Source: Ptychomitrium polyphyllum
Lineage: Eukaryota
Length of the DNA stretch: 64,000 bases
Direction: 5' to 3'
NCBI GenBank assembly: GCA_973851085.1
Contig: OZ316776.1
Coordinates: forward strand, 10,106,001-10,170,000
The notes beneath the pieces are model-generated. The model did no database searches, had not been told where the DNA came from, and was given only the letters and a program-made list of their open reading frames with translations. Position numbers and translations under genes: made by a program. Positions within the stretch are counted from its first letter, which is position 1; the number at the start of each line of letters is the position of its first letter. Below are positions 1 through 41,770 of this stretch, in pieces.

Positions 1-2256
1 TGTGGCAATGAATGCCAAGCTATGCTAAGTGGATGTAATGAAGTTTAATCAATATTTTTTTTATTAAATTACAATTTAATTGGACTTTTAAATGGCATTT
101 AGAATTATGAGAGTGTTATATAAATGATTTAGAATTATTTGCTAAGTCAAGTCTTAGGAATATAGTTTAAAAGAATAAAACATTAAAAAGGATTTTCAAA
201 GAGATGTTAGTGCAACCATTCAGTAAAGCTTTTGCATTATTTCATACGCTTGCATTTGTTGATTTTTTCTTTGTAGAATGAGAGATAACTTGATTTATGT
301 GTTTACTTGCCAAAATATTTAGACGGTTTCTTGAAAATTTTAAATTGCTTGGTCTCTTTATTTTAATATTATTATAAGTTAATTTCTTGAATAAAAGGAA
401 AAAGAAATTTAAGTAGAAAATAATATTAGAATTTGTGAAGGTTGTGCGTAGTAAGCATCTTTTAATGCAAACAACCATAGTCCAACATGTCAAATGTTGC
501 CATTGTGATCTAATATGATACTAAGAACCCAAGGTTTTATATCCATGGCAATAGAATATATGGACCTTAAAGTAATTTGATTTATTTATTTTTCATTTAT
601 ATCCATTTTAGAAATTTTAATTCAATTTTTTTTTTATTTTCGTTTTTTTTGTTGTATTTTTCTTTAAAAGATTTTTTAAAGTATAATGGAAGAACTTTTA
701 AGGTTTAAATTTTATATTAGCATTTATTAAATTCAAGTTGAATTTTTAGTGGTAGGTTCTTTTAATTAATTAATTATTTTTGCAAGTTTTTATAACTTTT
801 GGCCATCTATTGTTGGTGTGTGTCAATAGCTTTGATCCATTTTTTCTTTTATCATTTGTTGTTTGGAAAAAGAGATGTAATTTTTGATTTTAGAGTTTTG
901 TATTTGGTATTTTTTCTTAATTGCAAGAATTGTTGCCATCAATGTATATTGTTGCCTCATTTTGTATTAATATAGTATGAATTTAATAAGTGTATTACAA
1001 AGATGAGATTGAATTAATGGTTGAAAAATCCTTTTGGATATATTAATTGGGTGGTGCTTATATGAATTGTGGTGACAAAAAAGTGACATTTTGTGAATTG
1101 CAAGTTTGGAGGTAATGGCATGTATATGCTGCTTTTAAGCCTTTAGATAAATGTAGATTATCAAATAATTTTTTTCATGGTATATATTAGAAGTCAATAT
1201 TATCAATTTTCAACATTAGACTACTTAGTGGATGATTATATTGAAGACCTTGAATCAATAATGAACACCAAGATGGCTTTCGAGTCTATTTTGACTTTAT
1301 ACACCATTAAGAAGTTTTGGCTCTTTAATAATGAAAAATATTTGAAGAGATGGAAGATGATTCTCATTAATTAATTAAGGATTGACTTTTGAGATTAATT
1401 AGAGCATATTTTGTTGATAAAAGTTTACCCGCCTATGCAAACTGTGAACCTTTGGTCATCCATAAGCATTCATCCACTCAAAATACTTGCATATGCATAA
1501 ATTCATCCAAACCTACGAACATTAATGCTGCTTACTACCCTATACAAGCTAGCAACTATGCTGATTTAATATTGCAAAAGAATATTGAGTACTTTTGTGG
1601 CTTACAAAATAAGACTTATATTTTGTACGTTTGAATAAGCACACTCTACGTTTGGAGATATTTTCAAACAATAGAAGATGAAAACAAGACGGACAATTCA
1701 AACGGCAGAATTTGTACACGGAAGTGACAACTATCACGGGTTGCAAGCGCTGCGTGATTCTTCACATTCACGCTCGAAGCTATCTGGGTTGCTGATCTTG
1801 TGCGCCATGTGTTTTCACTAGAGGTTATCATTTGTGGAGTATGACCTGCCTGCCTCTACTCGTTGAATCTCCATCTCAACAATGTTTGCGATGGCTGGGC
1901 ACAGTGATTTGAACCGCCCTAACTGCCCACATCTTGACTCTGAAAGCCGCCAGATTCGGTCGGTTGCCAAATTGTGAGATCCAGTTGGTTGAAGCTCTAA
2001 CACTCAAAGCGTCGCATATATGACCTCTTCACATAAACTCTCAGCAGCATATTTTCGTTGGTCAAACAGCTCGTTCTTGCCTTAAAGCTGTCACTCCAAG
2101 CCCTAGTTCAGACCGGTAGCTGAAACTAGCTCCAGCTCGTGCTACCATATATCTGACAAGTGAACGAAAAGTAGTTGCTTGATCGAGTTCTAGAAAAATA
2201 AAGAGGTTGAATTTGTATCAAGGAAAGCAAGACTTGGAAATTGAGTACCTTTCAGG

Positions 2257-4100
2257 ATGAGAGAGTGCATTTGTATCCACATTGGTCAGGCCGGCGTGCA
2301 AGTTGGAAATGCGTGCTGGGAGCTTTTTTGTCTTGAGCATGGTATTCAGGTAAGCAGCTGCCTTTACTAAATTTAAATTGCAATCTTGATACATGATTCA
2401 ATTCGGAACAACCACAGCTGACGCAATGTTCTTGTACTGCTCTAACCCCGCTGAAACCTGCACAGCCGGATGGTCAAATGCCAGTTGAGAAGACCGTAGG
2501 AGGAGGAGATGATGCCTTCAACACCTTCTTCACCGAAACGGGAGCCGGAAAGCATGTCCCTCGCTGTCTGTACGTCGACCTGGAGCCCACAGTGGTGGAT
2601 GAAGTGCGCACTGGCACATACCGCCAGCTTTTCCACCCCGAGCAGCTCATCAGTGGCAAAGAGGATGCAGCCAACAACTTCGCTCGTGGGCACTACACAA
2701 GTATGGGCGATTCCTTTCCAAACGTCGGCACATTCAGTTCCGTTACCCAATTTAGGCCTAGAAACCGTGACCATCGTTGCTGTCCATGGTTTCAATAATC
2801 ACTAACATGTCTATAAATGCATCACTTACATAATTTGGTAATCGTTGCTTCAGTTGGGAAGGAGATTGTGGATTTAGCCCTCGACAGAATCCGAAAGCTG
2901 GCGGACCAGTGTACAGGACTGCAAGGATTCATGGTCTTCCATGCTGTGGGTGGTGGAACTGGCTCAGGCCTTGGCTCGTTGCTTCTCGAGAGGATGTCTG
3001 TCGACTATGGGAAGAAAACAAAGCTGTCTAAGTGCATCTTCCCAAGTCCTCAAGTGTCTGGTGCAGTGGTGGAGCCTTACAACAGCATTCTCTCTTGTCA
3101 TGGGCTCTTGGAACACACGGAGGTGTCCGTCATGTTCGACAACGAGGCCATTTATGATATTTGCCGACGCAACTTGGACATTGAACGTCCCACGTACACC
3201 AATCTGAACCGACTCATTACCCAGGTCCTTATCAGATTTCCAACCTGCACAAGCAAATTAAACCCAGTAGAAGTAAGCAAAGTACCAGTACTTGATTAAT
3301 CTGTGAAACGTGACCTGATATACTACTTCGTTGATTGGCTGCCACTGCAGGTGATGTCGTCGCTGACAGCCTCCCTGCGCTTCGACGGCGCCTTGAATAT
3401 GGACCTCACAAATTTCCAGACAAATTTGGTGCCATATCCCCGAATCCACTTCATGCTTGCGTCCTACGCACCCATCATCTCGGCCGAGAAAGCCTACCAT
3501 GAGCAGCTGACCGTCTCGGAGCTCAGTAACAGCGTGTTCGAGCCATCCAGCATGATGGCCAAATGCGACCCCCGGCACGGCAAGTACATCGCCTGCGCGC
3601 TAATGTACCGAGGCGACGTCGTCCCCAAAGATGTCAACTCCGCAGTGGGCAGCATCAAAACCAAGCGCACAATCCAGTTCGTGGACTGGTGCCCCACGGG
3701 CTTCAAGTGTGGAATCAACTACCAGCCTCCCACAGGTGATTCTTCTGGGTTGATCCATCTCCTGATTAGATGCCCAAATCAAGAGACCTAATCTAATGAT
3801 TCTAACCATGATCAGCCTCTCCCAACAGTGGTCCCTGGTGGTGATCTGGCCAAAGTCCAACGCGCCTGCTGCATGGTGGCAAACAGCACCAGTGTTGCCG
3901 AGGTGTTTGCACGTTTGGACCACAAATTTGATCTCATGTACGCTAAGCGCGCATTTGTACATTGGTACGTTGGGGAGGGGATGGAGGAAGGGGAATTCTC
4001 GGAGGCGCGGGAGGATTTGGCTGCCCTTGAGAAGGACTACGAAGAAGTGGGTGCGGATTCTACTGAAGGTGATGGCGAAGGTGATGAGGAGGAATACTAG
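2257..4100 (+). CDS. TUA: Alpha-tubulin, divergent isotype, 5 exons, 451 aa, carries E254N
   Basis: Exons 2257-2349, 2466-2700, 2854-3224, 3351-3735 and 3829-4100, all GT-AG and in frame. N-terminus [30 protein letters not shown] signature, K40 present, C-terminal EEEY. Confidence 0.98.
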
Positions 4101-4513
4101 ATCTTGAACAACAGTCCTGAGGTTTAGCATATCGGACCTTGTCAGATGAACCAAGACTCGAACTAGAACTCAGAACCAGTTTTTCTGAAACCTCAGTCTA
4201 CCTTTTTCTCTCTCCATCGAGCTTTTAGGTACCCCAGTCGGCTGCGACCAGGTGCAGAGTTTGTACCTTCTCTGCTCCCTGCAATTTTGTGAAAACTTCT
4301 AACAAAATTTTCCAATCATTACCTCAAAGGTTCAGGAATTTTTAGCTGCGTGGCATCTATTGTGACGGGGCGTTACAGCTAAGCTACATCCAGAGCAGAG
4401 GGAGCTCAACTATTCTCAGGTTTAGCGATGGCGTCACAGTCGGTGACAGAAGTTCCTTGGTCACGGTGAACAGGGTGATCGTCCCTTGGAGAAAAAACAT
4501 GCATTTTCTGGTC

Positions 4514-5871
4514 TTACCAGTGATGTGAGCGGGAGTCTTCATACTCGGCTTCATTAGGATGTACAATGTCAAAACAAGATTTCCAGACTTCGCTCTTTTT
4601 AACAATAATGTCATCAGGTGCAATGAGCATGTCAACTTCGCATAGCTTGTCATCCCATCTAGTCCAGTGGTGGACTTCAAGCTCTTCATGTTCAATCTCA
4701 CCCATCGTGTTCTCATAATCCGCTCCGAAACTACCTACACCAAATTCATTGTCGCCAGAAGCACATAGCATCCTTCAGGAACATATGAAGGAGTAGTACC
4801 AGGTGCTACTTCCCCGATTTGTTGCAAGGTTACGGTGCATAAAAACAAATCAAGCAGTGAGCTTCTGACTGAGTTTCTGCAATTCCACAAAACTTCTGCT
4901 ATAATCTGGACTTTGTAGAGCAATTCTTAAAAAAACAAGTCTTCATTACAGTAACCAATTTACTGTAAAGAAATTGCAAGCTTCTCCAGAAGGCCAAAAG
5001 GGTTCTTGTCCTTCAATTTCTGTACCCAAGATCAGAGAACAGCCTTAGCCTTGAGCAAAGAGAAAAACTTTTGATATTTGCTTGCGAGGGATTATTAAAT
5101 TTTGGAATAGAGTCATCAAAGGTGCCGTCCTCGAAAACTAATTTTCGAATATAAGAAGTTCGGCTGTATGAACAAATCGAAGACCAAGAACAGCTGAATA
5201 TCTGAATTATCCATCCGCAGCTTTTGGTTTGGAAAGAAAGTGGTATGGAAGGAAGCAATATGCGGAGGAAGCTGTGACTTACACCAAGTGAATTGTATGT
5301 AAACGGCCTCGATCCTATTGCTGCCACCAATTCACCACCTCTGAAGCCCATCTACATTGGAATTAGAATCAGTATTGTCTCAATTTCAGGCTGTCTGTTT
5401 CATATCACAAAGGAACTGGAGGGGATCACAATGCTCATACAGTAGCAACTTGGACAAGTATGCCCTGACTCGTATCTCATATAATCCCAGTGTATTAACA
5501 CCATCTGCTGTAATCAGCTGTACATTTGTACTTGAGAATAGAATTCCCTGTAGGAAATTAAAAAGGGATGAGTTTAGCTGCCAGGAACAACGAGTCTCTC
5601 CATCAATAACAATGGTTGAACCATCAACAAATAAAGATACTTTTTGAACTCGAATAACATCTTCACTAGAGAGAAGAAGGTATAATTCACCGATCCCAAG
5701 GATTTGTAGCAAATTAATGACAACTTCCACATCATTGACACCAATTCTTCCGTCTGTCATAGATGTTTCACGACTGCAATGTACATTCATGCTTGAGTAT
5801 AATGAGAAGGTTTGTGAACAACCTCTGCCTCCGAGCTCCTTCCGTTGTCTAGTCATTTGCCATTGTTTCAT
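4514..5871 (-). pseudogene. Degenerate 2OG-Fe(II) oxygenase-like gene
   Basis: Fragments ..TRCSWQLN.., RVRAYLSKLLLYE, (frameshift) ETILILIPM*MGFRGGELVA and C-terminal MGEIEHEELEVHHW..NEAEYE follow the order I recall for the 'AELYKLLLYE..HxD..TLVVQLP..GGELVV' 2OG-Fe(II) oxygenase family. Stops at 5386-5388 and 5352-5354; the HxD motif is not retained. Recognised by eye only. Confidence 0.55.
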
Positions 5872-7949
5872 AGAAGAAACTTAGGACCAGTATAAAAGTT
5901 CTTGTTCTAGCTGATGCAAGAGGTATGTCACTCTTGTGAGCACTTAAACACGTGCAAGAGATAAACAATGTCAGCATGCTCCACTACTGAATCTTGGACA
6001 AGGAAAATTTCAAAACAACACTTCTTTAAATTGGTACAAATTCTAAATTCTAAAGCATGCAAGAATGTTATTTCGCATTCAGCCTATCGAACGTCACCTA
6101 CAAACTGATTGTGACATACGCCAAGGTAACCTGTTTCTGCGGATGGATGCGCCCTCAACATCTCTTCATTGTAGAGCGCCTAGCGACCGAGTACAGGTAA
6201 AGACCACGCATTGTTCATGACAGAAAACAGCGAGGCCATGGGGTAGAAAGAAGAAACGGAAACATCAACAAGGATGATGCGAAATCAACACATACACAGC
6301 TCGTTCTTTAATCAGTTAGCATTCCACCTAAGCAAAGTTGACAATCGATATTCATCTCACCTGCCTTTATGTCGACAGCAAAGCAACAACTCGTAACACG
6401 GCTCCAATCACACTTATTTGCACCTCTTGGAACAGCCAGCCTGTAAGAGAAAATTACAAATCGCTGAATGCCGCAGCTAAGTCAACTTTAGTGTGATAGT
6501 GTGTAGCTGAATCGTTGTTTCTGGCCAATAGAATGCAGAATGCGGCGACGATTTCAACATAGAACGGGCGCCAGTGTAGATTGCCGGAAGTGCGTCGCAT
6601 CGACTTTCTGTATCCATATTAAGAAGCTCTTTACGATGCTCGGTAGCCGAGGTTTTGGTAGGAGAAGAGTGCCGGTGCATGCATCAATGACGAACATTTG
6701 GTTAGACCGGTACATCCACTTCGAAGCTTGGTACGAGTGTGTAAGTGTATTCATTCCGCTACACACTACGTTTTACACAACGATTCAGGTACACACTACC
6801 TCAAGTGGAAATCGTTTCAATTTCATTTGAAAGGAAATATAGAAACGTTCAGTCCGCAGCACCGACTTCATTTAAGTCCATCAACCACCTCTTGATGGGG
6901 CTCTGCTGGTGCTTTCATTGGCAGTGGATCGAATTGGAACTCGGCTCATCTTGGGAGCTGTATGTGTGTAAAGCTTGGTGGTTTCACTCTGCCACGGATT
7001 GTCTGCACGGCAATTGATGCATTTGAAGGCCTTTTTCACCTATTGGGTTTTTGAAGGGAATTTTGTATTTGAGCACTACCAAACCAGAGCAGCACAAAAG
7101 ACTGGCGATGTTTTATTTGCATGGTACTAGAAGTGAGTCTCTAATGTGCCTCACTCCTCTTTGCCCTAAATGCGACATTTTAGTTTGTGACCGAATATGC
7201 GATGGTGGATTGGATTTGTTTCTGAGATGGATGCAGGGTGCTTCCGGAGCCTGCTGTACACTTCAGAGGAGTACACCATAGCTAAGTTGTTATTTGACCT
7301 TTTTTTCAGAGTCCTGTATCGAGTGAGGAACCACTGATCTTGGTCTTTGTATTGTTAGCTCGTTGATCTTAAATGCGGCTTCTCTTCCTTTGTACAGGCA
7401 GGATGAGTGATCGATTCTTGCTGCAGATAAACAAAGCATGTGCTGGAGGTACATGTCTGAGAAGCCTTTGTTAATCATTGCTTAGTCTTGTTGCGGACGA
7501 AAAGCACACCTAAAGGGTAGCATAGCGGATGGCATTGGTGGTGTTAAACTTTTTTGTCGAAGTGAATCGAAGGCTGCGGATAATTGATTCAAACAAAGAG
7601 TCTCGGTAGTACTGGATTTGCCTGCATAGTAAATGAAAGAAGAATTTTGAAATCGAGGAAAAAAGGCTGAGTTGATGCATTGAAGAACTCGTGAGAAGGA
7701 CCAGGCCGCACCAAAGGGGCAGCAGACCCGTTAGTACTAAATTGGCCGTTGCCGCCGTCATTGTAGTCCAAATCTCTAGATCTTAGCTTTTCTAAAAACT
7801 AGACTTGCAGCCGCTTAGCTCCAAGAATTTTCACTACAATTTGATTGTTAAGCACCGAGAAAACGTCTTCTAAAATTAGGCTTCCAACCTACCAGGCCAA
7901 TGGATCCCCTCTCACTCAAACAACAGCCAATTCTTCCATATTTCTCCAA

Positions 7950-11259: not shown

Positions 11260-13286
11260 TGGCTACATCCATCAATTTCGAAACTTGTGACACGGCCAGG
11301 CTATGTTGGCCCAGGATACCAATCCCTCGGTTCTAGAGGATAAGTAACTATGTCAGAGCCTATTTGAAATAGTCCTATTGATGTCTTATGGACCTTCGTT
11401 CGTGTTGTTCCCTAGCAGGATGTCATCCTCCTCGCCGTTATCGCAGTTGCCATGATCCATCCACAGCCGTAGCCACAGGCCCACAGCCTGATCATATGAT
11501 GCATTTTTCGCAACAGAACCCACCTGATTCCTTAAACTTCTCAATGCATGAAGGCCGCTTCTTCCCGGAAAAGCATTCCCTAAAAGTTGCATGATCGCTT
11601 CGCAGTACGTTACAGGCAATGGTCAGGGTAACTGGCTATGAGCTTCACATTAGTTCCGGTCCACCAAGCTCCACTTTTGAGCAAAATTTGTTCACATTGT
11701 GTGAAGGATCTAGAGCGCAAAACCGTGCGGGAAAAATTAGCTTACGCAAGTTTGAGCACTAGAATCTTCTCTGCTGTCATTCTTATTTCCACACTGACCA
11801 GTTGCCATGAGTCGTGACCGCCAAATGGCGTTCCGCCTCGATTGCAGTTCCAGCCTCGATTGCGTCCTCGTTGACTCATTCCTCACAAGCAAAGCGCTCG
11901 CATTGGCAACTTCGCTAACCTCGGAGCAATTCTTCAGCATACGCAAGTTCCAGTAGTCCGTCCTGCCCTCCTCCACGAGCGGCCGCCCAATCCCTCCAGG
12001 AACTCCAAGCGCACTGTTTAATACGATAGTCAAAAGCCTGACATTCGGATGATGTCGGGAAACATCAAAGTTCAAACCCTGAGCGTTTACCAAGTAAATG
12101 AAGTGTTCTTGAAGCGCCAGCAGTATTTGCTCCATGTCGAACTTGCCGCCCTCACTTGCGAGCTCTCTAGGTTGTTGCTGCCTTGACTGCGAGCGTTGCG
12201 GTTCTAAATCCACCGTCCCTACCCCCTGGGCTATCAATTACTTCGAGCCACACTATTAATTCGAGTAATCCATAAGCGGCGAAGATCTCTTTTTCGTTTA
12301 CTTCTATCTCGAGATGAAGAAGCTAACGCTCGCATTCCTTGTTGATTAGCTGTTCGAAATAATTTTGAATTAGCCCCTTGAAATCCGGCTCACAGTCAAT
12401 TGGAAAATTGGAACTGGACTGCAGAAGCACCCCTGACCTCTGAAAGGGCATATAACAAAATACTACGGCTTAATCGACTATCTAATTTTGGTGAACCTGT
12501 TGAAAAAGAGATAGGAGATTTATACGATTCATTTCTAAGGCGCTAAAAGCGGGATACAAGAAGACAAAAAAATTGCGTCAAATACGTAAATTGATCTAGT
12601 TGAGGCATTTTTTTTAAACTTTTTCTTTGCTGATTCAAATACTTTTATTGAATCACGACAGAAGAAAACTTGTTTTCTTCTTTGAGCCCTTAATGTTACA
12701 GCTCTTTAAACAAAACGGCTTAGCTTTGTCCGGACTCACTCAGTGGAGGTGACGGTAACTTTCCGTGACATAGGTTTTGCACATTTATGGAATAGTCAGA
12801 TTCATCACGCATGTACTGTTCACGCTGTAGCCAGCCGGTGCCCGATATTCTGCAGATACACCACCTGATGCAAGATTCAATGGCAGAAGATTCACAAATC
12901 ACGAGCCTAATCCGGGTGTTATAGACACGTGATTTTCGAAGGCCGAGTCACCTAGTAGACGATGTTGCGGCCCTAGGTGAGATCGGATACTGGCACCAGA
13001 TCGAACCTGTGTTTCGCTGCCGCAAGCTGCCTGCAAGACTCTGATTTCGTACACTTTGCAGCGCACTCCCTCCACTGGCAGGCTGCGTCAATTACGACAA
13101 CGTGCGACAGGTATAATACCGTCGCAATTCTATCTAGAGGAAGAGCGATGAACTCCTCTTCCGGAAGCAGTTGCCTGGTGGAAGCGCAGGGTGATTAGAG
13201 TACATGAGAGGAAGGAAAAGCGCGCTTTGCAGGTTGTTTGTTGCATCCAGTTGCCTTCCGGCTGCTTGTTGTGGAATTAGGCAGCG

Positions 13287-16200
13287 ATGGTGAAGTTTGC
13301 GAAGGAGCTGCAGAGCCAGCTTGTACCAGAATGGCAGGAGGCGTACTGCAACTACAACGAGCTGAAGGAGGACTTGCGGCGCATCCAGCAGCACCGGCTT
13401 CTGGGACCGACCTACACTCGCACGGGCTCCTTAGGGCTGCTGCGCTCGCTGGTGTCCATGAAGCCCGGCCTCAGCAAGGCCTTGACGAGAACCCTTACGC
13501 GCCGAGGGCGCCCGGAGTACATGGCCTCGCTCTCGCCCAAGACAGGGGAGCACTCCAAGGATACCCTCGTGGTAGGTTTCATGGCCGCCCACACTGAGGC
13601 CCACTCGCTTCCACCCCTTGATTCTACAGAGCGCCTGTTCTTCATGACAAACGCATCCCACAAAGCCTCGAAGTTGCAATTTGCAGGAGCTTCCGAAATG
13701 CGGCACTTGAGGACATCTGAGGAAATTGCTGCTGCTTGTTTTTTTATTGATGCTTTGCGTTGACCGTTGATTAGTTTAGTACTAAGCAGGCTATTGATTG
13801 TAGAGCTCACCAGATTCTCGCTGTTCGTGCAAGAATACCACCTTTTAGTAGATATTGGAGGCGAAGACAAGTGCGAGCTTCAGCTTTTATTTGGTAGTCG
13901 TGCTTGTGCTTCGTTTTTGGCCGCCAACTTGTACTTGACTATGCTTGCATGAACCTTAGACGAGGTTGGCTGCACTGACATTGAGAAGTGCACAGGTAGA
14001 CAAGAAATTGGCGCTGGATGGGACTGAAATGTACGTCAGCGAGCTAGGAGAGCCACTGTCACAGTCTCCGCAGGACAGGACCTTCTTCGTGCGGCTTGAT
14101 GCACAGTTGACGAAAGTCAACAAGTTTTACAAGAAGAAGGAAGCGGAGAATATCGCTCGAGCAGGCGCGTTGGAGAAGCAGATGCTTGCACTGATCCATT
14201 TGCAGGAGGCATTAGCTCGCGAGGGGCTGGATTACGCGCCTACGGACTTCCCAACGGTCGGGCAGAGCGGTGTAGATGACCCTGATGAGCTGCATAGTAA
14301 GCACAACTGCTTCGTAATTACGATGTCGATTAGATATGGAATTGATTGAGCGATGAGGATTAACGTGAATTGATCTTCATCTCTTGCAGTTTCGAAGGGA
14401 ACATCCGACGAGCTTCCGCTGATAGACGAGGACACGGTGAAGTCGGACCGTGAACTGTACCAAATACAGACTTTTCCCATGACACCGTCTCGGAGAAACC
14501 GTGCGCAGAAGAAAAGGGACGCCGATGAAGTCGACGAGTCTGACAACGTTATTCAGGATTACATTGACCAAGTTACGAGGTCACCGAGGTCACCAGGAGT
14601 GCGATTCCAGCTGGACAGCCTCGCTTTGAGCTCATCAGGCACGCTGAAGTCGGCGTTGAAGAAAGTTTCGTCCATATCAGAGCGTGTTGAGCCTGTTGAA
14701 GAGGAGATGGTGGTGGTCGAAGATGCTGTGAGATTCGATGACATAGAAAATCAGAGGGTGTACACTCAAAAAGAGTTGGATCACGCAAGGAAGGTCCTGC
14801 GTCAAGCATTTGTGGAGTTTTACAGAGGGCTTGGTATGCTTACCAGTTACAGGTATTTGAGGCTTGCTAGCTGACAACGACCATACTCTGTAGCATAACC
14901 TATCGATCAAGTTAAGGAGGAGATGGTGGTGGGGCTGATACTGAGTATTTTAGAATCACTCCCTGTAGAATTACTTGCATCTTCAGTTTCTCAACTTTGG
15001 AGCTTCTTTGGAGCTAAGGTAATGGTAGATAGGAAAGCGGGTAGAATGCTGTGGAGCGACAAACATGCAGGAAAGAGGGCAATTGGTAAATGATACCAAA
15101 GCTGCACAGGGGAACTTATTGAGTGTATTATTCTCAGAGCTGGGGGGTTGTTGTTCTGGTGCTTTCATGAGTGATGTAAGGAAAGCACAATTGTGTCACT
15201 TCCTCTTCAATGCTAGGCGTGGTGAGAAGTTGCGTTCCATGTTTTCACAAGTTCTCTTAAACCCCGCAAGATGAGAGCAGGTATGGTGGAGTTGGGGCGA
15301 AGTAGCATAGAGCCCCTGGGTTTGTAGTTAAGCTTACCATAAGAGTGGTGATATTTCGAAGGCGGGCCGTTAATGGCGTGTACTGGAATTCAAGACATTA
15401 GTCTGACAGGGGTAGAAGTTGAAGCTGAATGGGTTAGGTGATGAGACTGAGGAGCATATAAACTTAGGAATGAGAGACTCTACCTAGCGAGCGTATGCAT
15501 AACTTAAGTGGAGAGACTCGTGAGGACAGGAACGGTACAGGAGGGACAGGACGGCGTCACGATTACCAATGAGGGGTTCTATGTTTATCATTTGTGCCCA
15601 GGCCAGCTCTTGTTGGAAGTTGTATCCAGAGGATGAACAATCTGTAGGTTACGGTCTCACTTACACCTCATCGATCTTACGAGTCAGCTCTTCTCCCTAT
15701 TGCAGCTGTGCGACAAATTTCGATTGCCTCCACGCCCGATTTGAAAATACGCTTTGAGGACTCTCCTATCGTCGGCACTTCCCAGAAAGTCATTAATTTA
15801 GTTGTGCATTGAGCAAGCTGATAGCACTACCTAAGCTGGAAGGAATTTGATGCATGTTATCTTATCCTTCAGACAGTATATTTTCTCTTCAACGTATGCT
15901 TCAGGGACCGGCAGCCCGAGGACCAGCATATCATATGAATCGAGCAGGTCTTAAAGTCACTGTAGATTTATGAATGTCGTGTTTATCATCTAACTACTGA
16001 TTCTTGCGCACTGGACCAAGTACTGCCGACAGTTTTGCTAGATATGAATCATGTTTCCGTTGCTCTTTCAGGTCCTTGAATATAACAGCATTTGCCAAAA
16101 TTTTGAAGAAGTATGATAAGATCACGGGTTGGAACTTTTCGCCAATTTACATGAAGGAGGTCGAAACTTCTCACTTTGTTATTTCTAAGAAGGTAAGAAA

Positions 16201-19200
16201 GTATGGTTTGTGGTGTTCTTACATTTCCATTTTAATCGCCAAGCCACACTGACACGCTAAAATAACGATGCGATTGCCTTGAGCAGATTCAAACCTTGCA
16301 TTTAAGCGTTGTTCTCTTTTTTATTTTATTTTATTCAATAATGAGCTCTGAAAAAAAAAAGTGGGTAAATTTGGGCCTGAATGTGCAACTGAAACTCAGC
16401 AGTCTGTCTGCTTTACAATGTAGTGTGGTTGGATACAACATTTCAAGAATTAATGCATATCTTTCGAAACCTCTAAAATGATCAAGATATCTTCGTGATG
16501 GCTTCGCAGATTCACAAGTTGATGAGCATGGTGGAGGAAATATTCACGAAGCATTTTACTGAAGGGCAGCGAAAGAAGGCTATAGCTCAACTGCGGCCAA
16601 CTCGGAGACAAGGGACTCATCGGACAACGTTCTTTTTAGGTACTAATATTTCTGGAGTTGGTTTACGATGACAAGGATTGGTATTGAGATCCTAGCTACG
16701 ACCTTAACTGTTTCTACTTCAACCTTTCTGTTTTTTCTATCGCAGAGGAGATAGTTTTAGCTTCAGCAAATAGAGTGACATCCTATGTCTCTCAGGTAAA
16801 TACTGCTGATCACTTTAGTTCGCTCTGAGTAATTCAGCTATTGAGGCAGCTCCAGTGATCCCTACGTCTTTGATGCCACGATTGTTGTACTCTGGGCTGA
16901 CTTGAACTCTGCTAACCTGGGCGTTAATGGACTGGAACCAGGTCTTTTTACGGGCTGTTCTCTTGCTCTTTTGGTTTCCTTCTTCTTCTTAGTGGAAAAT
17001 CCGCTGGCATGGGATCATGGTGGAGGTAACGAATATTTAGACACGGTGTTCCCTGTGTTCAGGTACATTTTCAGAGCCAATTTCTTACTCACTTCTCAGC
17101 TTAATGATTCCGACAACCCTTTCTTGTTTATGTCCATTCTACTGTAAGAGTCATCCCGTAAAAAAATCGAACGATTTCTATTGTGGAATTAGACTAGCGC
17201 AGAACTTCAAGTTAGATCAACCTAAGTGATTTATTAGTTTTCTTAAAATTTCGTTTTTCGGTTTCGTCATGTCCAAGGATCTTACAGTGTTATTGTGTGT
17301 GGCTCGCCATCAATTCAGCACACTTATGTTGATAACAATCCATATGTACTTCTACGGCTTCAATGTGTACGCATGGCAAAGGACTCGCATAAATTATCCG
17401 TTTATATTCGGATTCTCCCCAGGCGCTGAACTTCGATACCGCGAGGTCTTGCTTCTGAGCACTGGATTCACGACCTTCTTGCTGGGAGGCATGAATATTC
17501 ACATTTCTGTGACCTTGCTAACGCATAAAGATCCCGTGTCAGGCGCCGCTCCGTCTCCATCACAGCATCGTGGCTCTAAGTTCGCAGATATCATTCCCTT
17601 GCTCCTTGTCTTGGTAAAACCAACTGAATATATTTTCTTTTTTCTAAATGTTTTGGTTAATTAGATTGATTTCAGTTTTAAGACTGGTAACTGATCTGAG
17701 AGATTTTTGGCTAACTGGCGATGTACAGATAAGCTTGGGGATTTTGTTCTTTCCATTCAATACTATGTATAGATCCTCCCGCGCATTTTTTCTGAACTGC
17801 TTTCGACGTCTCGCTTTAGCACCCTTGTTTAAGGTAATCATTCAGTAAGTTTTAATGTTATTGGCTTGAATTACTTTCTTAATTTAAAATTGATGTTACT
17901 GGACCAACTCAATTAAAACTAAGCTGCATTGTTTTGCTACACATGAAATCTTTGCAACCTAAATAGTAATTCTAAAAGCTTGCGTGGCTGAGTGGTGCAG
18001 GTCGTACTGGCCGATTTTTTTCTCGGTGACCAGTTCACAAGCCAGGTGTTGGTGTTCAGAAACTTTGAGTTCGTAGCTTGCTACTATTCCAGTGGCTTCT
18101 TTTTGAACAAACAAGCCGCAGCATGCAAAACGAATCTTGTCTACCAGGGATTTGGCTATGTGGTGGCGTTACTTCCGTATTGGTGGCGTTTTCTTCAGGT
18201 ATAATCATGCAAATTGTAGGAAAAACGAACTCCTAGTCACTTGATTTTAAATGGCTTATTCATTGTCTGTGAATAGTCCAACAATGACTTGCTATTTGGA
18301 TGCTATGTTCTCAATCACGCTAAGGTAAATCTCAAGTGTGTTATGTGCTTATTATGTCATATGTGTCGAACAGTGTCTGAGGAGATACAAAGATGAGGGG
18401 GATACGCATCAGCTAGAGAATGCTGGCAAATACATGTCAGCGATCATAGCCGTGGGGTTGAGACAAGCATACACGAATTACCGCCATTTGCATGTATACG
18501 AACTCCCCTTGCGGGTGCTATTTATGGTCGCGTCCATTATTGCCACCATCTACACAAACTACTGGGATTTGTGTGTCGACTGGGGTTTGCTCAAATCTCA
18601 ATCGAAGAACAAATGGCTGCGAGACAAGCTTATTCTGAGGAACAAGGAAATCTACTTCGCAGCCATTGTAAGTGACCCAACCGCAATTTATTTTATTTCT
18701 GTTATAGTGTTTGGGATGAACATGTATACATGAGAGTTTTCAGTAACTAAATTACTGGTACTTGAAGTTTTGCCCTGTTTTGCTTTTTTTCAGGTAGGAA
18801 ATTCTCTTTTGAGGTTAGCGTGGTTGGCTACACTTCTCCAAGTTCAGGTGTCATATGGATTCAATCAGAACGCATTTGATGTTATCATGGCTAGTCTGGA
18901 GATTTTTCGGAGGGGAATCTGGAACTTCTTTCGGTAACAAACCATCTCCTAACGAGATTAGAGAAGGACCGTCCACTCAGAGTGTGCACGTCTTTCAATT
19001 TAAATGTTGTTTAGTTCTATGGCTCATTTGTTAACCATTGTTCAGTCAGTCACTTGCGGTTATGCAGTACGGTATTCTTAAGACCTCCAAGACCCTTATT
19101 GAGTGCGCTTTTTTTCAGAAGTGATCGTCGTTATGCTGCACGCATGAGGCTAGCAAATGTTTTCAACTGGATTGGTGGTTTACTTCGCAAAATATGCTTT

Positions 19201-21910: not shown

Positions 21911-22055
21911 GGCCTCACGCGGCAGCTGCGTTGTCTCTTGAGCCAAGGCTGATGCGCACGGCGCGAGGCGGTGTCCAGTTGCCCCGCGACCGCGACGTGC
22001 GTGGGGTTTCCGGGTGCGACGTCTTTTCACTCTTGAGCGGGGTTCGGACTCGGTC

Positions 22056-25000
22056 ATGGAAGACTCCAGCGCGCGCTCGCGCAGGCGCAGAGCGGCGGGG
22101 GTTTTGGGAGGCGGCCAGGCGGAGGCCGTGGCGCCGGGGAGCTTTGTGAGCGACCTTGGGTACGATCCGAGCTTCCAAGGCGGTTTGCAGGGGGAGGGTG
22201 AGCGGCCGAGCTCTGGCGGGGGTCTGTGGGGGAGTGGTGGTGCGAGCGGGGAGGGAAAGGAGCAGGAGAGCTTCGATGTCGCTGTAGATGATGCGCCTCG
22301 GGCCGCTGCGGGGCAGTTCATGGTGTCATTCTCCGGGGGTAGTAGTTATGGTGGGAATAGTTCGTCGTTGTTCTCGGAGATGCAGTTGTTCGGTTCGCAG
22401 CCTATTGTGATGCAGCAGCAGCAGCAGCAGCAGCAAATGGCGCAGCAGCGGCAGCAGATGCAGAATTTTTCGCCGAGTCTCGGTTGGCAGAATATGACGA
22501 GCTTAGTCGGCAGCCAGCAGAGCTTAGGGCAGTCGCAATCGCAGGCGCTTATGCATGGACTTGGTTTCGGCTCAGAGCAAGGTCTTCCGCCGTCGAGTTC
22601 GTTAGGTCATCTCATTCCGGGTGACGAGAATTGGCTAGGGCGTGATGGAGATACCATTCCGGCGAGTGAAATGTCTCTAGGTGGCGATTCGAGTGACAGT
22701 GAGGATTCGATTAAGGGTGAAGCAGGTCGCTTGCGCGGGAGGAAAGAGAAACTGGGCAAGGGAGGGAACCCTGGAGAGAAGTTGTGGAGGAAATTAAGAG
22801 GTATGATAAGAAGGAGTTCTCATTTGTGGATGATTAGTCGCTGGGCACTGAAAGTCTTCTCTTTTTTTGGAATCTGAAATTTTAAGACTTCACTTCAAGA
22901 TTCATAAGGGAAGCTATCTGTGCTGGATCATTTGTTGGTTTAGAAATGTAGCAAGTTTGTCTCCGTTCGGCTCAAGTTCTGTCGAGAAACACATTGCGTA
23001 GGCAGAAGCGGTGCTCGGAGTTTACTATTCCGAGCTCAATTTTGACCTTACTCAGTGGGATTTATAGTTATGTTAATCACATTACTGGAAGCCTATGCAC
23101 TAAGGGAGCTAGAGCAGACGTGAGAAAGTTGTCGCAGTATCTGATTAGCGCAAGGCTTTAAAGAACTGTAGAGAAATGGGTTTGGGACATTATCTGCGTA
23201 ACATATTGTCGTCTCGTATGTCATATTGTGGATTAAAGCAATTTCTTCCTTCAGATAGTGTAGCAGAGTCTGCAATTTAGTCGTATCAAACTCGGTCTTT
23301 CGAAGTGCAATCTTGTCGATTGCTCTTCATCTTGGGGTCTGAGGCATAACTATATTAATCTTATGTATGCAGTCGGCGAGAAGGGAGAGGACAAGATCGA
23401 GGGGTTTAGGGAAAGTGGAGAACCGTCACAAACACCAAGAGCTGGTGGTAAGGTGAGACACTATTACTAGTTCAGTATACATCAGTGCGCAAGTTGTAGT
23501 ACCCTAGTGTCGCGAATCGAAACTAACAGCGATAGCTGCATATTATGGTTTAGGGAGGAGTGCTTCTGTAGGAAGTTGAATGAGTTAGAGCTTAAAAGTC
23601 AACAATTCTGACTGTAGAATTTATTCGCATTATAAACTATTCTCGTTGTTTGTGTTTCAGGCAAGAAAGAGTAAGCACAAACATGCCAAGCCCCGGGAAC
23701 GTGTTGTGGCTTCTGAAGGATTGCTGGAGGATTCGGTGAATGAAGAGTTTTTGGCGTCGTCCTCAGAATCTGGTTCTAGCAGCGACTACTCAGACAGGGA
23801 TAAGAAAGAAGGTTGGAACAAGAAAAGGAAACGTGCTGGGCAAGATGCTGATGGCAATGTCACATGGACAGATGAGTCTGTAAAGTTCCTTTTTGAGACA
23901 TACGATGCCATACATCAACGGCTGTGGGAGGAAAGTAACGGCCATGTCAAGTATCAAAAGAAATGGACACCCATACTGAAGGCTATGCAGGATAAGTTTG
24001 GCAAGCATTTTTCGAAGAAGCAATGCCAGAGCAAGTACTGGAGCGTAAGGCGCGAATGCGCAGATTACAGGTAATCCAATAGAGCAGTGTGATAATTCAT
24101 AGCGTTCTGCTGCCTAGATTATAAGGCTTTGTTTGAGTTTTAGAGTTGATGCAAAGATTTTTTCGGTTCGAATTACACAGGGGTCCTTTCTACGGACGTC
24201 CCCGAATACATGCATATTGCTTTAGGCTGGTCCTAACTGTAGTAATTGTCCTAGAAAATTTAATAAAAGTTGCTTCTGTTGACTGTGTTGGTGCCAGGAA
24301 CATGTCTGCCAAAGCTGCACGATCCGATCCATCTTGGAATCCCAGTATAGCGGGACGAGAACTTCTCAAGCCAAAGTTTTATGATGTCTGGTTTGAGGTG
24401 TCAGGGAAGAAAGAAGCTATTTTGACGAATTCAACCGCGACAAAGGCTACTGGTGTGAAAGATGGAGGGGCCCTCGTCCGGGATCTTAAGACACCAGGAC
24501 ACAACGATTCGTGGAAAGTTGGAGGAAAAGACGGGCAACCGACAAAGCACAAGGTTGAAGATTGCGGAACTGCATTGAAGGAAATGCAGCGGCTTATGCA
24601 AGTGCAGCTTCAGGTGAGACTTTTAATTAGATTCATTTTATTTTTTTACTTAATTTGCTTGAAATTGAAACTGTTACCTTTAGCTGGTTTGAGAAAATGA
24701 ATATACTGTTTGTAGCACATTTGCGACGGTAATGTTTCATGATGAATTGCGCATTGAAGATAATTGCCTTATGTTGCTTACATTTTCAATTCCCTAATTG
24801 TATAGAAAATGTGAAACTCGATACTGAGTTCCTTCAATAGAGAAGTCTCACACAAATTCGGTGGGCCTCCACAGGCTTCAGAGAAGAGAGAGGAGGCCAT
24901 GAAGTTTCGTGCGGAGCTGATGATGGACCTTTTGACGCAACATATGGAACACGTGGAAAGAAGAGTAAGTAATTTAGACGAAGGTCGACAACCCCAACTT

Positions 25001-27495: not shown

Positions 27496-28560
27496 TTAAG
27501 GGTGATAGCCCTTGTACGATTCCTTGTTGTTCCTGTATGCGCAACATCCACAAGAATATACGACGATGAGAAAAACTAGCACAATGATGTTGCCAATGGC
27601 AACTCTCCGCCAGTTAGACTTCACGTTCTGCAGCACTCCAGCGCGGCATGAGTTGCAATCCGTGCACAATTGTGTTTGAGTATTGTTCCACTTCCCGCAG
27701 TCCGAGTCTGAGCCAGGTGCCGGAGTTCCATTCCAATCAGTCGCATTCACAAACGTGAAACCGCACGACGTCGGTGGCTTGCAGCATCCAGACTGTCACA
27801 AAGAGTAAAGAAGCAATTCAATAAAGTCAGAAGGCAAGATAACTCCACCTACTGCTTTAGCATCAAGTCGACTTCAGATGACTACGCTTTTCAACAAGAT
27901 TTTACCTTTTCGTTTCGAAAAAGTAAACAATGGCCACTGTTTTCAAAGGTGAAAAAACTCTAAAACATATGATCTGCTATGTCAAGTTAAAAACAAAGAA
28001 AAAAATAACTCAAAACTAAAATGCTTTACATCTAAAAGTAAGAATGCTTAGTAACAAAGTACCTCGAGAGGAGTGAGAGATGCTTTGTTGAATGCATCGA
28101 CGGTAATGTACTTTTTGCCCAAATCGTTGCACACCTTGGAATCGGCGATACAGCTCTTGATCTTTGCCCAGTACGTAGGATTATTGACCCGCCTCTGTAA
28201 CCAAGTGGAATAATCACCCAGCCTGTAGTCTTTGTAGCCTTTCCCCGAGACCGCATTCCCCGCACCGGAATTGGTCACCACAAAGGCGAAGATGGTGAAG
28301 CAGAAGAGGAGCACAATCAAAAGGAACATGACGAAGAGGTAGAGGAGTAGAAGGAACTTCATGTCGCACCATGCGCCAATCATGCCGGCCAGCGACACCA
28401 GCAGGATGAACACTCCCAGCGCAATGATAGGGTACTGCAAGAACCGCACGCACACGGTGTCGTGCGTCTTCGAGAGCCATACTCCTAGTGCGATGATTGG
28501 GATGGACAATATGCACGTCGCGAGATTCAGCAACCCGGTGAGCAAATTACTGCACCCCAT
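27496..28560 (-). CDS. TET: Tetraspanin, 2 exons
   Basis: Exons 28560-28063 and 27792-27496. Four hydrophobic segments, plant tetraspanin motif SGCCKPP, and GKGYKDYRLGDYSTWLQ, CTDCNSCRAGVL, YSCGCCAYRN. Confidence 0.97.
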
Positions 28561-31500
28561 GGTCACTGCTCCACCGAATCTTCAAACAGCACTTTCTCCT
28601 ACCACGGTCTGCAGAACAAGCATTGGGTTAGTCTACAAACTACCTCAAACAATCTTCAAAAAAACATCACATCACAACACCCAACCACAAAAAAACCTCA
28701 CGCGTTACTATAATAAACACTTTCTACGAACACCATCACCCTTTTCTGAAATGAAATTCACATCCGAACTCTTCTTTCAATTTGCCCCCCAAACTGCTAT
28801 AAAACCAAGATCTTTCCCTCCGCCACCAAAAAAGGTAAACAATTGAGACAGAAAAGGGAACACCTAGTAAACGCTGAGTACGTCCCCCCCAAAAACTCTA
28901 AACAGCGGAATCAGAATTTTTTCAAAAAGTCGAGAAAAGAAAACCGCAATTCCGTACAACCCACAAGGTGCCACCAAACCAAAGCTTTGCGCACCTGGAA
29001 ACCTTGAAACAAAAGCTTCACAACTATCTTCTTGCCACCTCCTCTGTAACCCAGTCTAGCAACCCAAAGACGCAACGTAACAACAACATACAAACTTAGC
29101 TCGGACTTGGTATTAAACGACTCCAAGACTCGGTTCAAATCCCGTATGGCGATGTTCTGCGTTAGTTATACTGCTGCTGGGATAAGCCGGCCCCCCCTTT
29201 TCTAACACACCGCTCTAGTCAAAGCTGCGCTTCTGCGTCCCCGACTCGGCCTCCACTATCCAAAGTTCAGGCGCGTCCCAACGGCCAGCCCCACATCCCA
29301 CTTCTTGAGAATGGTTCTAATGGCGACCGTGGATCGAAAGCCACTCTTGCAGAGAGCCGTTAGATTGTGTTGCGAAATTTGTCGGCAATTCTGGATGCGG
29401 GCGGGGATGCGTTTCAACAAAACTTCACGTTGAGGAGAATGGTTTCTGCGGTAGTTCTGGCCCGTGCAATGGTGCGTGTGGGTATCGAACGGGTGCCATG
29501 GAGCGATTCCATTGCTTAAAGTCAAGGAAGTGGGGGGCTAGCGGCGAAAAGAGCGGGCGCGTGGTGCTCCAATGCTCCCTTTACCGATAATTACCAGCAT
29601 AATTCTCATCTATAGTTCTTATCTTACGCGCAAACGCGACACTATGAGAATTGTGGATCTTCCTCGAAACTCATATACTTTGAATTTTCAATTGTACGCT
29701 TCGGGTAGACAACATCTGTTTTGGGTTCAATGACGGTTTTTGGTATACTTGCCATCCCATGTGCCCAGGCCAATTCGTGGTCAAGCGTCGCTGCTCCTTC
29801 AGTTCAACATTTCTAATATGCTTTACGAGATTCCGCATGCAAAACAAACAACGAGTTACAACGATCTTTGTTAACTTACTGTACCTCCTTCAAACAACTT
29901 ACAGTAGGATTTTTAGGTTCTCAGCCTCAGTGTCTCACCCATTTTCTGTAGTAAGTTTATCTGTAAAGGATCTGTCTCTGCCTGCACATGCAGGCTCACA
30001 AATTATTACTGTGTCTGCACCTCTAGTAGCGCAGTCACCTGAATTGATTGAGTCCACAAGCAGACGACTTTGTTTAATTTAGTGATAAATTTTGTAGGTA
30101 GGAACGGAAGAAGCCATGTCCATGATTCCACTGGATTATTGACTGCTTTGCCGAGTTTGCAGGCATGCCCTTCCTCCCACTTGCACAAACCAGGTAACTA
30201 CCGCCTCCTACTTTTAATGTAACCTAGTTGTGCGGTTCGATCGTGTGAAGGACTATTCAGTGGAGGCCATAGCAACAGTGACTCGTGCAGCGCATTGTTC
30301 GTCGCCATTGAAGTATTTTAATTTTAGGATACTGTAGAAAATATTAAAAGTATCAATACACTAGCTGTGGGCTTCAGGGCATTGAAAGCATCACGAATAG
30401 TCTCATGATTATACCCTAATATAATATACAGATTGTTCCGTTACCAGGAGCCAACATCAAAAAGAAGTTCAGTGCTTCTACCTCTAAAACCCTAGGGGTT
30501 TGGATTAGCTCTGTTTTTGTTTGATGACGGCCAGTAGGAACAATGTAGAATCGCCGGTTGTGGATTTTGAGACATTCAGGAGCAATTCTAGTAGTATGAG
30601 AGACGTGAATTTCACGCCTTGCGAGGATATTATTGTCAAGAGTTGATCCATGTATAGAGGTGACTGTATATGGAGCCTCTGACTGTTGCGCGATTGAATG
30701 CACTTGGGGAAGGCTGAGCTCGAAGCTGGATCCATCTAGCGTGACTCACAGGCGACCAGCAAGCTGCCTGAGTTGGTCACGCCCAATGCAGAATACAATG
30801 GCCCCTAGGCTTGTCTGGGTGAACACTGAACTTCGGATGATTCTAGAATTAGAGTTGAGAACATCAAAAGGTGACTCGATATACGTTACTTCGTGTAAAT
30901 TGTGGTCGAAACACAACGCGCTCCTGGCGAATCATGCGACATACTGGATTTTTGAGCCTTGTCATGAGCCCTACTTGATGTTCCCTGCGATGCGAAGGCA
31001 GTAAGTCCTACACTGTAGTTTTAACCCATCCCTCATGAATGCTCTCCATTCTCCACTGTCTGCTCCCCTGTGACTCCGCAAGCCGGCCTGCCTAGCGCTG
31101 CAGTGCACTCTGAGTGGTGGCTCTGCAGCACTCTGGTTGCACATGTTCACAGGAGCGGAGCTGCTGAAGGCCACGGTGGTTAGAATTTGCTAAGTTATTC
31201 TTTTTAGTTTTTCAAGAGTCATTTGTCAAAGTGAGATACTAATTTTGAAATGTAGCAAAACGGCGACAAATTGCATTAATAAAATTGGTAAAGAAAAGCA
31301 AAAACCCATGTAAAACTCATATACATACAGACGCACGTACGTGTGCATATGTATATAAAGGGAGAGAAGTTTTCTATTAATGAAGTGCAAGTGCTTCATT
31401 AAACCACCTTGTCTACTGTTTCTTCAACATTCAATATTAAATGTTACTTTACTGTAAGGTTGATGTGATATCAAGGACAACACATCTTAACAGTAACATT

Positions 31501-32369: not shown

Positions 32370-32834
32370 TTATTCTCATTATCCCACGGATGAAAACCAA
32401 TTTCCTTTTCTAAAACACTTTCATGATCCTCAATAAAGCCTGTACATCAACAGTCCACATGCATATTTCGCAGGGCCGTTTTCTCCAGAATACCAGGAAG
32501 TTAGTATCAGTCCAAACCACCAAATTCTCTGTTTTGGCTCCCCATTTGAAGTCACAGTTTTACCAGGATGTGGCCTAAATGTTAGGCAAAACACCAATTT
32601 CACATTTTCATTAGGCTGAAGTGTATGCTCTTCAATAACAGTCTCACTGTTCTGATACCTGCAAGTAACTTGGGTATTTGGAGATGAATTTTCTTTTGGA
32701 AGTCCACTAGTACTAATCTTGTTGAAGATGAAAAAGACAGCTGGGGGAAACTCACTGAAGGCCATGGTGGCTGACTCCATTGCCACAAGAAACACTAAAA
32801 GACATACTATAGGGAGTCTAATTGAGTTTCCCAT
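32370..32834 (-). pseudogene. S-protein homologue (plant self-incompatibility S1-like) secreted protein, frameshifted
   Basis: Signal peptide MGNSIRLPIVCLLVFLVAMESATMA, then FFIFNKI..VTCR..HTLQPNENVKLVF. After a frameshift near 32560 the reading is CDFKWGAKTENLVVW..RPCEICMWTVDVQ, and after a second near 32438 ..IGFHPW. The CxFxW / CxxCxW / terminal W pattern fits SPH proteins. Confidence 0.6.
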
Positions 32835-41600: not shown

Positions 41601-41770
41601 TGAGTATTATAAATCAGTTTTGCTGATTGAAAGCTAAACTATTCACCAGCTTGTATATTTGATTTATCAGGGCTTGAAGTGCACCAATCCCAACGCTGTG
41701 TAGATTATCATAAGGCTTAGTGGTAATTATTACAACTCCACCGGAGCGAGGTAGATTGGCAGAGATTGCA

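What the first reader, a model, noticed from the sequence alone, without database searches (positions are those of the whole stretch)
3351..3440. Intact alpha-tubulin with Asn at catalytic Glu254: candidate natural GTPase-deficient tubulin isotype
Seen: splicing the five exons gives a 451-aa ORF with no indels against canonical numbering (K40, I110, Q233 and T349 all line up). The T7/H8 segment reads [25 protein letters not shown] instead of ..NVDLT-E-FQTN..; codon 254 is AAT at 3411-3413, two base changes from GAA/GAG, so a single sequencing error cannot explain it. Established: alpha-tubulin E254 completes the beta-tubulin E-site at the longitudinal interface and drives lattice GTP hydrolysis, and engineered E254A/E254N tubulins give hydrolysis-deficient, hyperstable GTP-lattice microtubules. 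Inference: the gene may encode a dedicated stabilising isotype that seeds GTP islands or non-dynamic microtubules, for example in the spline/multilayered structure or axoneme of bryophyte sperm. That would be stability encoded in the isotype rather than imposed by MAPs.
Basis: partly seen in the sequence, partly recalled or inferred. Interest (0 to 1): 0.9.

Follow-up and report, generated by a model that had tools for sequence, protein, structure and literature searches.

The report
Moss tubulin lacking its catalytic glutamate
Several mosses keep an intact, conserved alpha-tubulin gene in which the glutamate that normally triggers GTP breakdown in microtubules is replaced by asparagine, the same change biochemists engineer to freeze microtubules, so it likely builds unusually stable microtubules, possibly in sperm.

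Summary
Confirmed and extended. Five GT-AG-spliced exons give a 451-aa alpha-tubulin with AAT (Asn) at codon 254. It is not a private mutation. Seven database proteins, including two Ceratodon purpureus loci, share [10 protein letters not shown] and are identical to it over residues 234-264. The eight form one branch (100/99) inside a moss group of E254 paralogues. dN/dS to the nearest E254 paralogue is about 0.03. Three environmental members run unbroken across intron positions, as spliced mRNAs would. The branch also fixed V250M, I235M, D199E, M313I, C316A and S379A, mostly in the elements under the T7/H8 catalytic surface, so the interface is remodelled rather than point-mutated. The only solved structures shown with this motif are Asn-254 human tubulins, and human E254N is reported as hydrolysis-blocked. 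Best reading: a moss isotype that likely cannot stimulate beta-tubulin GTP hydrolysis and likely leaves stable GTP-like patches. Activity and tissue are untested, and the sperm link is circumstantial. Five literature searches and this scan's index showed no prior report. Reads at codon 254 could not be viewed.

The parts
2257..2349 (+). alpha-tubulin exon 1 (codons 1-31, MREC start)
   Evidence: ATG at 2257, followed by GTAAGC donor
2466..2700 (+). exon 2 (codons 32-110/1); K40, D69, E71, D98, N101 kept
2854..3224 (+). exon 3 (codons 110-233); GGGTGSG loop intact; S168-K169-C170, G179 (moss group mark), C191, G193, E199, F204
   Evidence: Pfam PF00091 E=4e-28
3351..3735 (+). exon 4 (codons 234-362/1); H7-T7-H8 with M235, M250, D251, N254; I313, A316; T349, K352
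   Evidence: Pfam PF03953 E=4e-40
3411..3413 (+). codon 254 AAT = Asn in place of the catalytic Glu
   Evidence: E254 paralogues L001-L008 have GAA/GAG
3399..3401 (+). codon 250 ATG = Met in place of Val (T7 loop), fixed in all 8 N254 proteins
3736..3828 (+). intron 4 at codon 361/362; the same break is seen in genomic N254 ORFs P0265 and P0266, and is absent from the E254 sister loci that cover it (L002-L004, L006-L008)
3829..4100 (+). exon 5 (codons 362-451 + TAG); A379; acidic tail ending EEY
1912..1918 (-). one RRCSGTT (DUO1-type) match about 340 nt upstream of ATG; not above chance, not counted as evidence
   Evidence: 31 matches in the window, 35.5 expected

Best explanation
This is an intact, conserved moss alpha-tubulin isotype that has Asn instead of the catalytic Glu254, and it likely cannot trigger GTP hydrolysis in the beta-tubulin it lands on, so it would leave lasting GTP-like, catastrophe-resistant patches in microtubules of a probably non-dividing cell type, most plausibly sperm. 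Shown: intact ORF, N254, one origin inside a moss G179/E254 paralogue group, low dN/dS, retained N-site GTP residues, D251, K352, K40 and EEY tail, and co-fixed changes around T7/H8. Inferred: (1) it folds and pairs with ordinary beta-tubulin; (2) when an N254 dimer adds to a protofilament, the beta subunit beneath it keeps GTP and the interface stays expanded, as with human E254N; (3) it co-assembles with E254 isotypes as a mosaic, so stability scales with its share; (4) the co-fixed residues tune the uncompacted interface; (5) expression is restricted or low, because such a subunit would impair spindle and cortical dynamics, and the spline, multilayered structure or flagellar apparatus of moss sperm is the best-fitting site.
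For: Intact spliced ORF. Eight N254 proteins identical over residues 234-264, while the window and Ceratodon differ at 36 positions elsewhere. One branch, 100/99 for 8 rows and 100/100 for 5 rows nested among moss E254 paralogues. Two Ceratodon loci, one of them in two assemblies. Window vs L004, codons 234-439: dS 1.72, dN 0.052; vs L001: 2.07, 0.07; vs L005: 1.04, 0.085; the other 5 of 8 loci are saturated at synonymous sites with dN about 0.055. A relative's contig spans 3300-4150 with 48 differences and no gap; of the 14 displayed differences I assigned to it, 10 are intronic and 4 are synonymous. P0105 and P0106 run across all three tested junctions and P0104 across two, on contigs of 1.9-3.0 kb. 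Fixed changes at positions at least 90% conserved: 6 of 9 (254 excluded) lie in S4/S5/H7/T7/H8/S8/S10, p about 9e-4. PMC4931326 names those elements as the pocket whose distortion moves E254. The top PDB matches to the motif are 7sja and 9f3h/9f3s, which carry DLTNFQTN. E254N is hydrolysis-blocked and stable with an 83.5 A expanded lattice, and mutant tubulins co-polymerise as mosaics (PMC11893814). E254 is the base and has no in-lattice substitute in QM/MM (PMC10319017). Hydrolysis-dead tubulin makes persistent EB1 islands (PMC13229199). Context for sperm: P. patens has male-biased alpha-tubulins (PMC12851517 supplements), its spline and axonemes are acetylated, and K40 is kept here.
Against: No biochemistry and no tissue data for any N254 gene. 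None of the three male-biased P. patens alpha-tubulins could be tied to N254. The three Marchantia proteins fetched keep E254, although liverwort sperm also have a spline, so the spline does not require N254. The N254 DNA pattern found 0 loci in the metagenome collection, while the exon-3 pattern found 8 loci that are all E254; some mosses may lack the gene, or the collection lacks the contigs. No Physcomitrium or Sphagnum N254 protein was seen, though 'clusters' hide members at 81-86% identity. The dN/dS values span both branches since duplication and cannot date a recent relaxation. The window copy has private changes (K169 where the others have M; M157 at an otherwise invariant L) and the longest tip branch in the group (0.073 vs at most 0.017). 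The clustering test is post hoc and uses recalled element boundaries. K40 is common in vegetative alpha-tubulins too (recalled), and the DUO1 motif is at chance level.
Confidence: 0.55

Rival explanations
1. Compensated interface: the co-fixed changes (V250M, I235M, D199E, M313I, C316A, S379A), a co-evolved beta isotype or a MAP restore slow hydrolysis, or weaken the longitudinal bond so that the lattice stays dynamic without the GTP switch.
For: The changes cluster around T7/H8. D251 is kept. Human E254N nucleates poorly and shows segmented EB binding, so the lattice is sensitive to neighbouring residues.
Against: No new acidic residue appears in 234-264. QM/MM finds that E254 always does the deprotonation in the compacted lattice. 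E254A, E254N and E254Q all block hydrolysis in human tubulin.
Confidence: 0.15
2. Same hydrolysis-dead isotype but a vegetative role: low-level incorporation gives rescue islands or lasting arrays in non-dividing gametophyte cells (for example conducting cells) or seeds that survive drying or cold.
For: Spliced-looking N254 ORFs occur in JGI and Logan assemblies, which need not be from antheridia. The group is moss-restricted in the data at hand, whereas sperm splines are shared with liverworts. Hydrolysis-dead subunits form persistent islands. Stable endoplasmic arrays in moss conducting cells and microtubule loss on drying are recalled, not checked.
Against: The library types of those contigs are unknown. 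Dominant toxicity of hydrolysis-dead alpha-tubulin in yeast and twisting in Arabidopsis are recalled (papers not held) and would penalise vegetative expression.
Confidence: 0.14
3. Minus-end or template specialist: the remodelled T7/H8 face is the one exposed at the minus end (established tubulin polarity), so the isotype may cap or anchor microtubules on gamma-tubulin or the multilayered structure, where E254 is not needed, rather than spread through the lattice.
For: The fixed changes concentrate on and beneath the minus-end face, while the N-site residues and tail are ordinary.
Against: K352 and D251 of the longitudinal interface are kept. No localisation data. No precedent was found in the searches.
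Confidence: 0.11
4. A decaying or neutral duplicate (or an assembly error) with no selected function of N254.
For: Private radical change K169 and a longer tip branch in the window copy. A sister locus, L005, does carry in-frame stops, so pseudogenes occur in this group.
Against: The same N254 in 8 sequences, identical 31-residue context, 92% identity to Ceratodon, dN/dS about 0.03, and intact splice sites.
Confidence: 0.04

Closest known systems
Engineered human alpha-tubulin E254N (PDB 7sja, 9f3h/9f3s; PMC11893814)
   Same: Asn at 254 in [14 protein letters not shown]; D251 kept.
   Different: Lab mutant on a canonical background. The moss protein is natural, conserved, and carries M250, M235, E199, I313, A316 and A379; its activity is untested.
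Moss G179/E254 alpha-tubulins (Ceratodon M758_1G323400, Physcomitrium XP_024394005.1, loci L001-L008)
   Same: C[IV][FY][14 protein letters not shown] motif, first three intron positions (in the L loci), 85-90% identity, same branch 100/97.
   Different: They keep E254, V250, D199, M313 and C316, and the L loci lack intron 4.
Canonical plant and algal alpha-tubulins (for example PDB 6u42, Melia P0243)
   Same: 451 aa, no indels, N-site GTP residues, K40, T349, EEY tail; up to 87% identity to the window protein.
   Different: E254 in 70 of 70 full-length comparators (selected for E254 from 73 candidates, none of which had another residue there).
Sperm-restricted tubulin isotypes (Marchantia MpTUA5; P. 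patens Pp3c3_5290, Pp3c11_13690)
   Same: A dedicated paralogue in a flagellate-sperm plant; male-biased expression is reported for these genes.
   Different: Their residue 254 was not seen here, and no expression link exists for the N254 gene. The Marchantia proteins fetched (MARPO_0037s0019 and a M. paleacea relative, not shown to be MpTUA5) have E254.

Membership tests
alpha-tubulin subfamily (by descent) | Tubulin GTPase + Tubulin_C domains, about 450 aa, colinear with solved alpha-tubulins | tested here: met
   Pfam; ungapped 1-451 alignment of the orthologue P0108
alpha-tubulin subfamily (by descent) | Groups with alpha-tubulins; 77-87% identity to non-moss alpha-tubulins | tested here: met
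   (no beta outgroup included; identity makes it unambiguous)
alpha-tubulin subfamily (by descent) | N-site GTP residues Q11, A12, D69, E71, D98, N101, GGGTG 142-146, N206, Y224, N228 (list recalled) | tested here: met
   T179 is G
alpha-tubulin subfamily (by descent) | Forms alpha/beta heterodimers and enters microtubules | not testable with these tools
   The AlphaFold model was unusable (pLDDT 34); no complex job was run
Canonical GTPase-activating alpha-tubulin | Catalytic Glu254 | tested here: not met
   AAT/Asn
Canonical GTPase-activating alpha-tubulin | Asp251 in T7/H8 | tested here: met
   GAC at 3402-3404
Hydrolysis-deficient GTP-lattice tubulin (E254A/N/Q type) | Non-acidic residue at 254 | tested here: met
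Hydrolysis-deficient GTP-lattice tubulin (E254A/N/Q type) | GTP retained in lattice, no catastrophe, expanded spacing | not testable with these tools
   needs recombinant protein
Sperm-specific tubulin isotype | Antheridium/spermatid-restricted expression | tested here: inconclusive
   No P. patens gene id could be tied to N254; Ceratodon supplement not held
Sperm-specific tubulin isotype | DUO1-type RRCSGTT enrichment upstream | tested here: inconclusive
   1 match in 1 kb upstream, window rate 0.48 per kb

The most novel reading that the evidence does not exclude
Mosses evolved a genetically encoded GTP-lattice tubulin: a conserved alpha isotype without GTPase-activating power and with a re-tuned longitudinal interface, which switches off dynamic instability in chosen microtubules (such as the sperm spline) by isotype choice alone. 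It would be the natural counterpart of the engineered E254N GTP-cap mimic.
Probability: 0.5. Interest if true: 0.92.

Novelty: new variant of a known kind. Interest (0 to 1): 0.8.

Why it matters
Glu254 is the residue that makes microtubules dynamic, and E254N is known as a lab tool for mimicking the GTP cap. A natural, selected N254 isotype in a transformable moss (CRISPR in Ceratodon is reported; search listing) makes two open questions testable in vivo. First, can cells use permanent GTP-like lattice or islands to set stability? Second, which second-site changes let an uncompacted interface behave well? It would extend the tubulin code from tails and lateral loops to the catalytic switch itself.

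Tried and rejected
No whole genome is held, so paralogue count and beta partners in this species are unknown. No RNA holder was listed for the gene; this is no evidence on expression. The N254 DNA pattern gave 0 metagenome loci. The AlphaFold model from a 24-row alignment had pLDDT 34 and was not used; no fold search was run. The ESM Atlas gave only generic alpha-tubulin clusters. The DUO1 motif is at chance level. Synteny to tie a male-biased P. patens gene to this locus failed: the annotated listed neighbours of Pp3c3_5290 are mostly LEA-like or hypothetical proteins, and the LpxB and GH3 rows lie on chromosomes 10 and 17; only differentially expressed genes are in that table. Supplements of PMC13317287 hold none of the six motifs or ids searched. 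Supplements of PMC8245031 (Ceratodon genome) are not held and may contain sex-biased expression of these genes; bioRxiv supplements are closed. Two recalled papers (yeast dominant-lethal alpha-tubulin; Arabidopsis D251A/E254A twisting) were not held. The moss lineage of the window was not resolved: a neighbour gene's closest named relative is P. patens at 62%, and closer hits at 73-84% are unnamed. Earlier scan findings were unrelated protist tubulin notes or empty.

Full report
Observation. The stretch 3351-3440 reads [30 protein letters not shown]. Five exons (2257-2349, 2466-2700, 2854-3224, 3351-3735, 3829-4100) with GT..AG introns give a 451-aa ORF with one terminal stop, and codon 254 is AAT at 3411-3413. 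The N-site GTP residues, GGGTG loop, D251, K352, K40, T349 and the EEY tail are kept (the residue list is recalled). No second tubulin gene lies in the window. The window is a moss by inference: the closest named tubulins are Ceratodon (92%), and a neighbouring gene's closest named relative is Physcomitrium (62%).

It is a conserved branch, not a private change. Three homologue searches listed 120 proteins each, out of 3897, 7210 and 1533 hits. Seven proteins carry [10 protein letters not shown]: Ceratodon KC19_9G101900 (P0107), Ceratodon KC19_5G045500/M758_5G044600 (P0108, two assemblies), two Logan, two JGI and one ENA protein. Across all 462 motif copies fetched by then, 450 had E, 7 N, 3 D, 1 G and 1 was mis-registered; this set was enriched for likeness to the N254 query and is not a census. 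The eight N254 proteins are identical over residues 234-264, while the window and P0108 differ at 36 positions elsewhere. In a 35-row tree they form one side of a 100/99 branch, next to two moss E254 proteins at 96/97. In a 23-row tree, with the three partial N254 rows and several non-moss rows left out and two metagenome paralogues added, the five full-length N254 rows (100/100) nest inside a moss group marked by G179 (100/97), nearest to L004 (97/88). The trees are midpoint-rooted. The window copy branches first among the N254 rows, with weak support.

Selection and expression. Over codons 234-439 the window gene versus L004 gives dS 1.72 and dN 0.052 (ratio about 0.03). L001 gives 2.07/0.07 over 98 codons and L005 gives 1.04/0.085 over 111 codons. 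The other 5 of 8 loci are saturated at synonymous sites with dN about 0.055. These values cover both branches since duplication. A relative's contig covers 3300-4150 in one piece with 48 differences and no gap; the 14 displayed differences I assigned to it are 10 intronic and 4 synonymous, but 295 rows were hidden. P0105 and P0106 run through all three exon junctions tested and P0104 through two, on 1.9-3.0 kb contigs, whereas P0265 and P0266 are exon-4-only ORFs on long genomic contigs, with breaks at the window's intron 3 and 4 positions. The simplest reading is that N254 genes are transcribed and spliced in relatives (inference; library types unknown).

The interface is remodelled. Against 70 full-length E254 alpha-tubulins, the branch fixed D199E, V250M and E254N (each 100% conserved otherwise), M313I (98%), C316A (96%), I235M, L204F/Y and S379A (94%), and F169M/K, the last shared with the sister group. 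Six of nine such changes other than 254 fall in S4/S5/H7/T7/H8/S8/S10, which hold 51 of 309 conserved positions (p about 9e-4; post hoc; boundaries recalled). PMC4931326 (passages) describes these elements as the pocket around C316, whose distortion shifts V250, F255 and the catalytic E254. No new acidic residue appears near 254.

Mechanism. Established: the incoming alpha subunit supplies D251 and E254 to the beta active site (PMC12186500, passages). [quoted passage not shown] Human E254N microtubules are hydrolysis-blocked, catastrophe-free, expanded (83.5 A), poor nucleators with segmented EB binding, and mutant tubulins co-assemble as mosaics (PMC11893814, passages). Hydrolysis-dead tubulin forms persistent EB1 islands (PMC13229199, passages). 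The two best PDB matches to the window motif are human chains with DLTNFQTN, 7sja and 9f3h/9f3s. Inferred: the moss isotype pairs with beta, leaves the beta beneath it in the GTP state, and makes microtubules more stable in proportion to its share. My odds: real selected isotype 0.95; strongly hydrolysis-deficient 0.75; lattice-stabilising role 0.55-0.6; sperm as the site about 0.4.

The sperm link is circumstantial. Marchantia has antheridium-specific MpTUA5 under DUO1 control (PMC6290024, passages and section 8). P. patens has male-biased alpha-tubulins: Pp3c3_5290 with 75160/25550/17580 counts in sperm packages versus 0/0/0 in eggs, and Pp3c11_13690 peaking at 144 in 14-15 DAI antheridia (PMC12851517, supplement rows and passages). 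The moss spline is acetylated (10.1101/2020.12.21.423647, passages). None of these genes could be tied to N254. Against a general bryophyte sperm role: 3 of 3 Marchantia proteins fetched keep E254, though liverwort sperm have splines (10.1101/2021.07.10.451882, passages). The upstream DUO1-type match is at chance level. Eight of eight metagenome loci with the moss exon-3 motif are E254, and the N254 pattern found none. The absence of Physcomitrium or Sphagnum N254 hits says little, since one inspected cluster holds members only 81-86% identical to its representative.

Novelty. Searches for alpha-tubulin+E254+moss, tubulin+E254N+natural+isotype, moss+tubulin+catalytic glutamate+GTP hydrolysis, alpha-tubulin+'lacks the catalytic'+glutamate+divergent+microtubule and a six-term search including DLTNFQTN listed no report of a natural N254 alpha-tubulin. 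Only the top 20 were shown, and among the listed papers DLTNFQTN occurred only as the engineered mutant's peptide. PMC13317287 on P. patens tubulin modifications (passages and supplements) does not mention it. The library lacks most subscription papers. The Ceratodon proteins are in GenBank as hypothetical proteins. Verdict: an alpha-tubulin by descent that fails the canonical catalytic criterion; a new variant of a known kind, interest 0.8.

Noticed in passing
window 3030-3032 region, codon 169 of the tubulin (exon 3), and codon 157: The window copy has Lys169 (Met in the other N254 and sister proteins, Phe in 99% of E254 comparators) and Met157 at an otherwise invariant Leu; these private changes may mark relaxed or further divergent selection.
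   Followed up: partly
L001-L008: A moss alpha-tubulin group with T179G and F169M but E254, three introns, from at least two distinct genes; possibly an undescribed moss class in its own right.
   Followed up: partly
L005:1664-2270: Sister-group alpha-tubulin with in-frame stops in exons 1-2 and several odd residues (likely pseudogene); it shares C191 with the N254 branch.
   Followed up: no
proteins P0261, P0282, P0186: Single database alpha-tubulins with D254 (P0261 from Chaenocephalus aceratus, P0282 unnamed) or G254 (P0186 unnamed); may be errors or slow-hydrolysis variants.
   Followed up: no
window about 4380-6500 (-): Multi-exon minus-strand open frames ending close to the tubulin 3' end; the 5386-5877 frame has no Pfam match.
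   Followed up: partly
window 13200-18800 (+), 28048-28581 (-), 33795-35432 (+), 41714-44353 (+), 45162-47300 (-), 51729-52154 (-): Neighbouring genes: SPX-EXS (PHO1-like), tetraspanin, LpxB, GH3, actin-related protein and neprosin by Pfam; no functional tie to the tubulin is seen.
   Followed up: partly
window 21942-24700 (+): Gene with a poly-Gln region and a Myb/trihelix-like segment (resemblance recalled; no Pfam match); only 17 relatives among the 50% representatives, the closest named one an uncharacterised Physcomitrium protein.
   Followed up: partly
window 32430-32867 (-): Small ORF with a signal-peptide-like N-terminus and no Pfam match.
   Followed up: no
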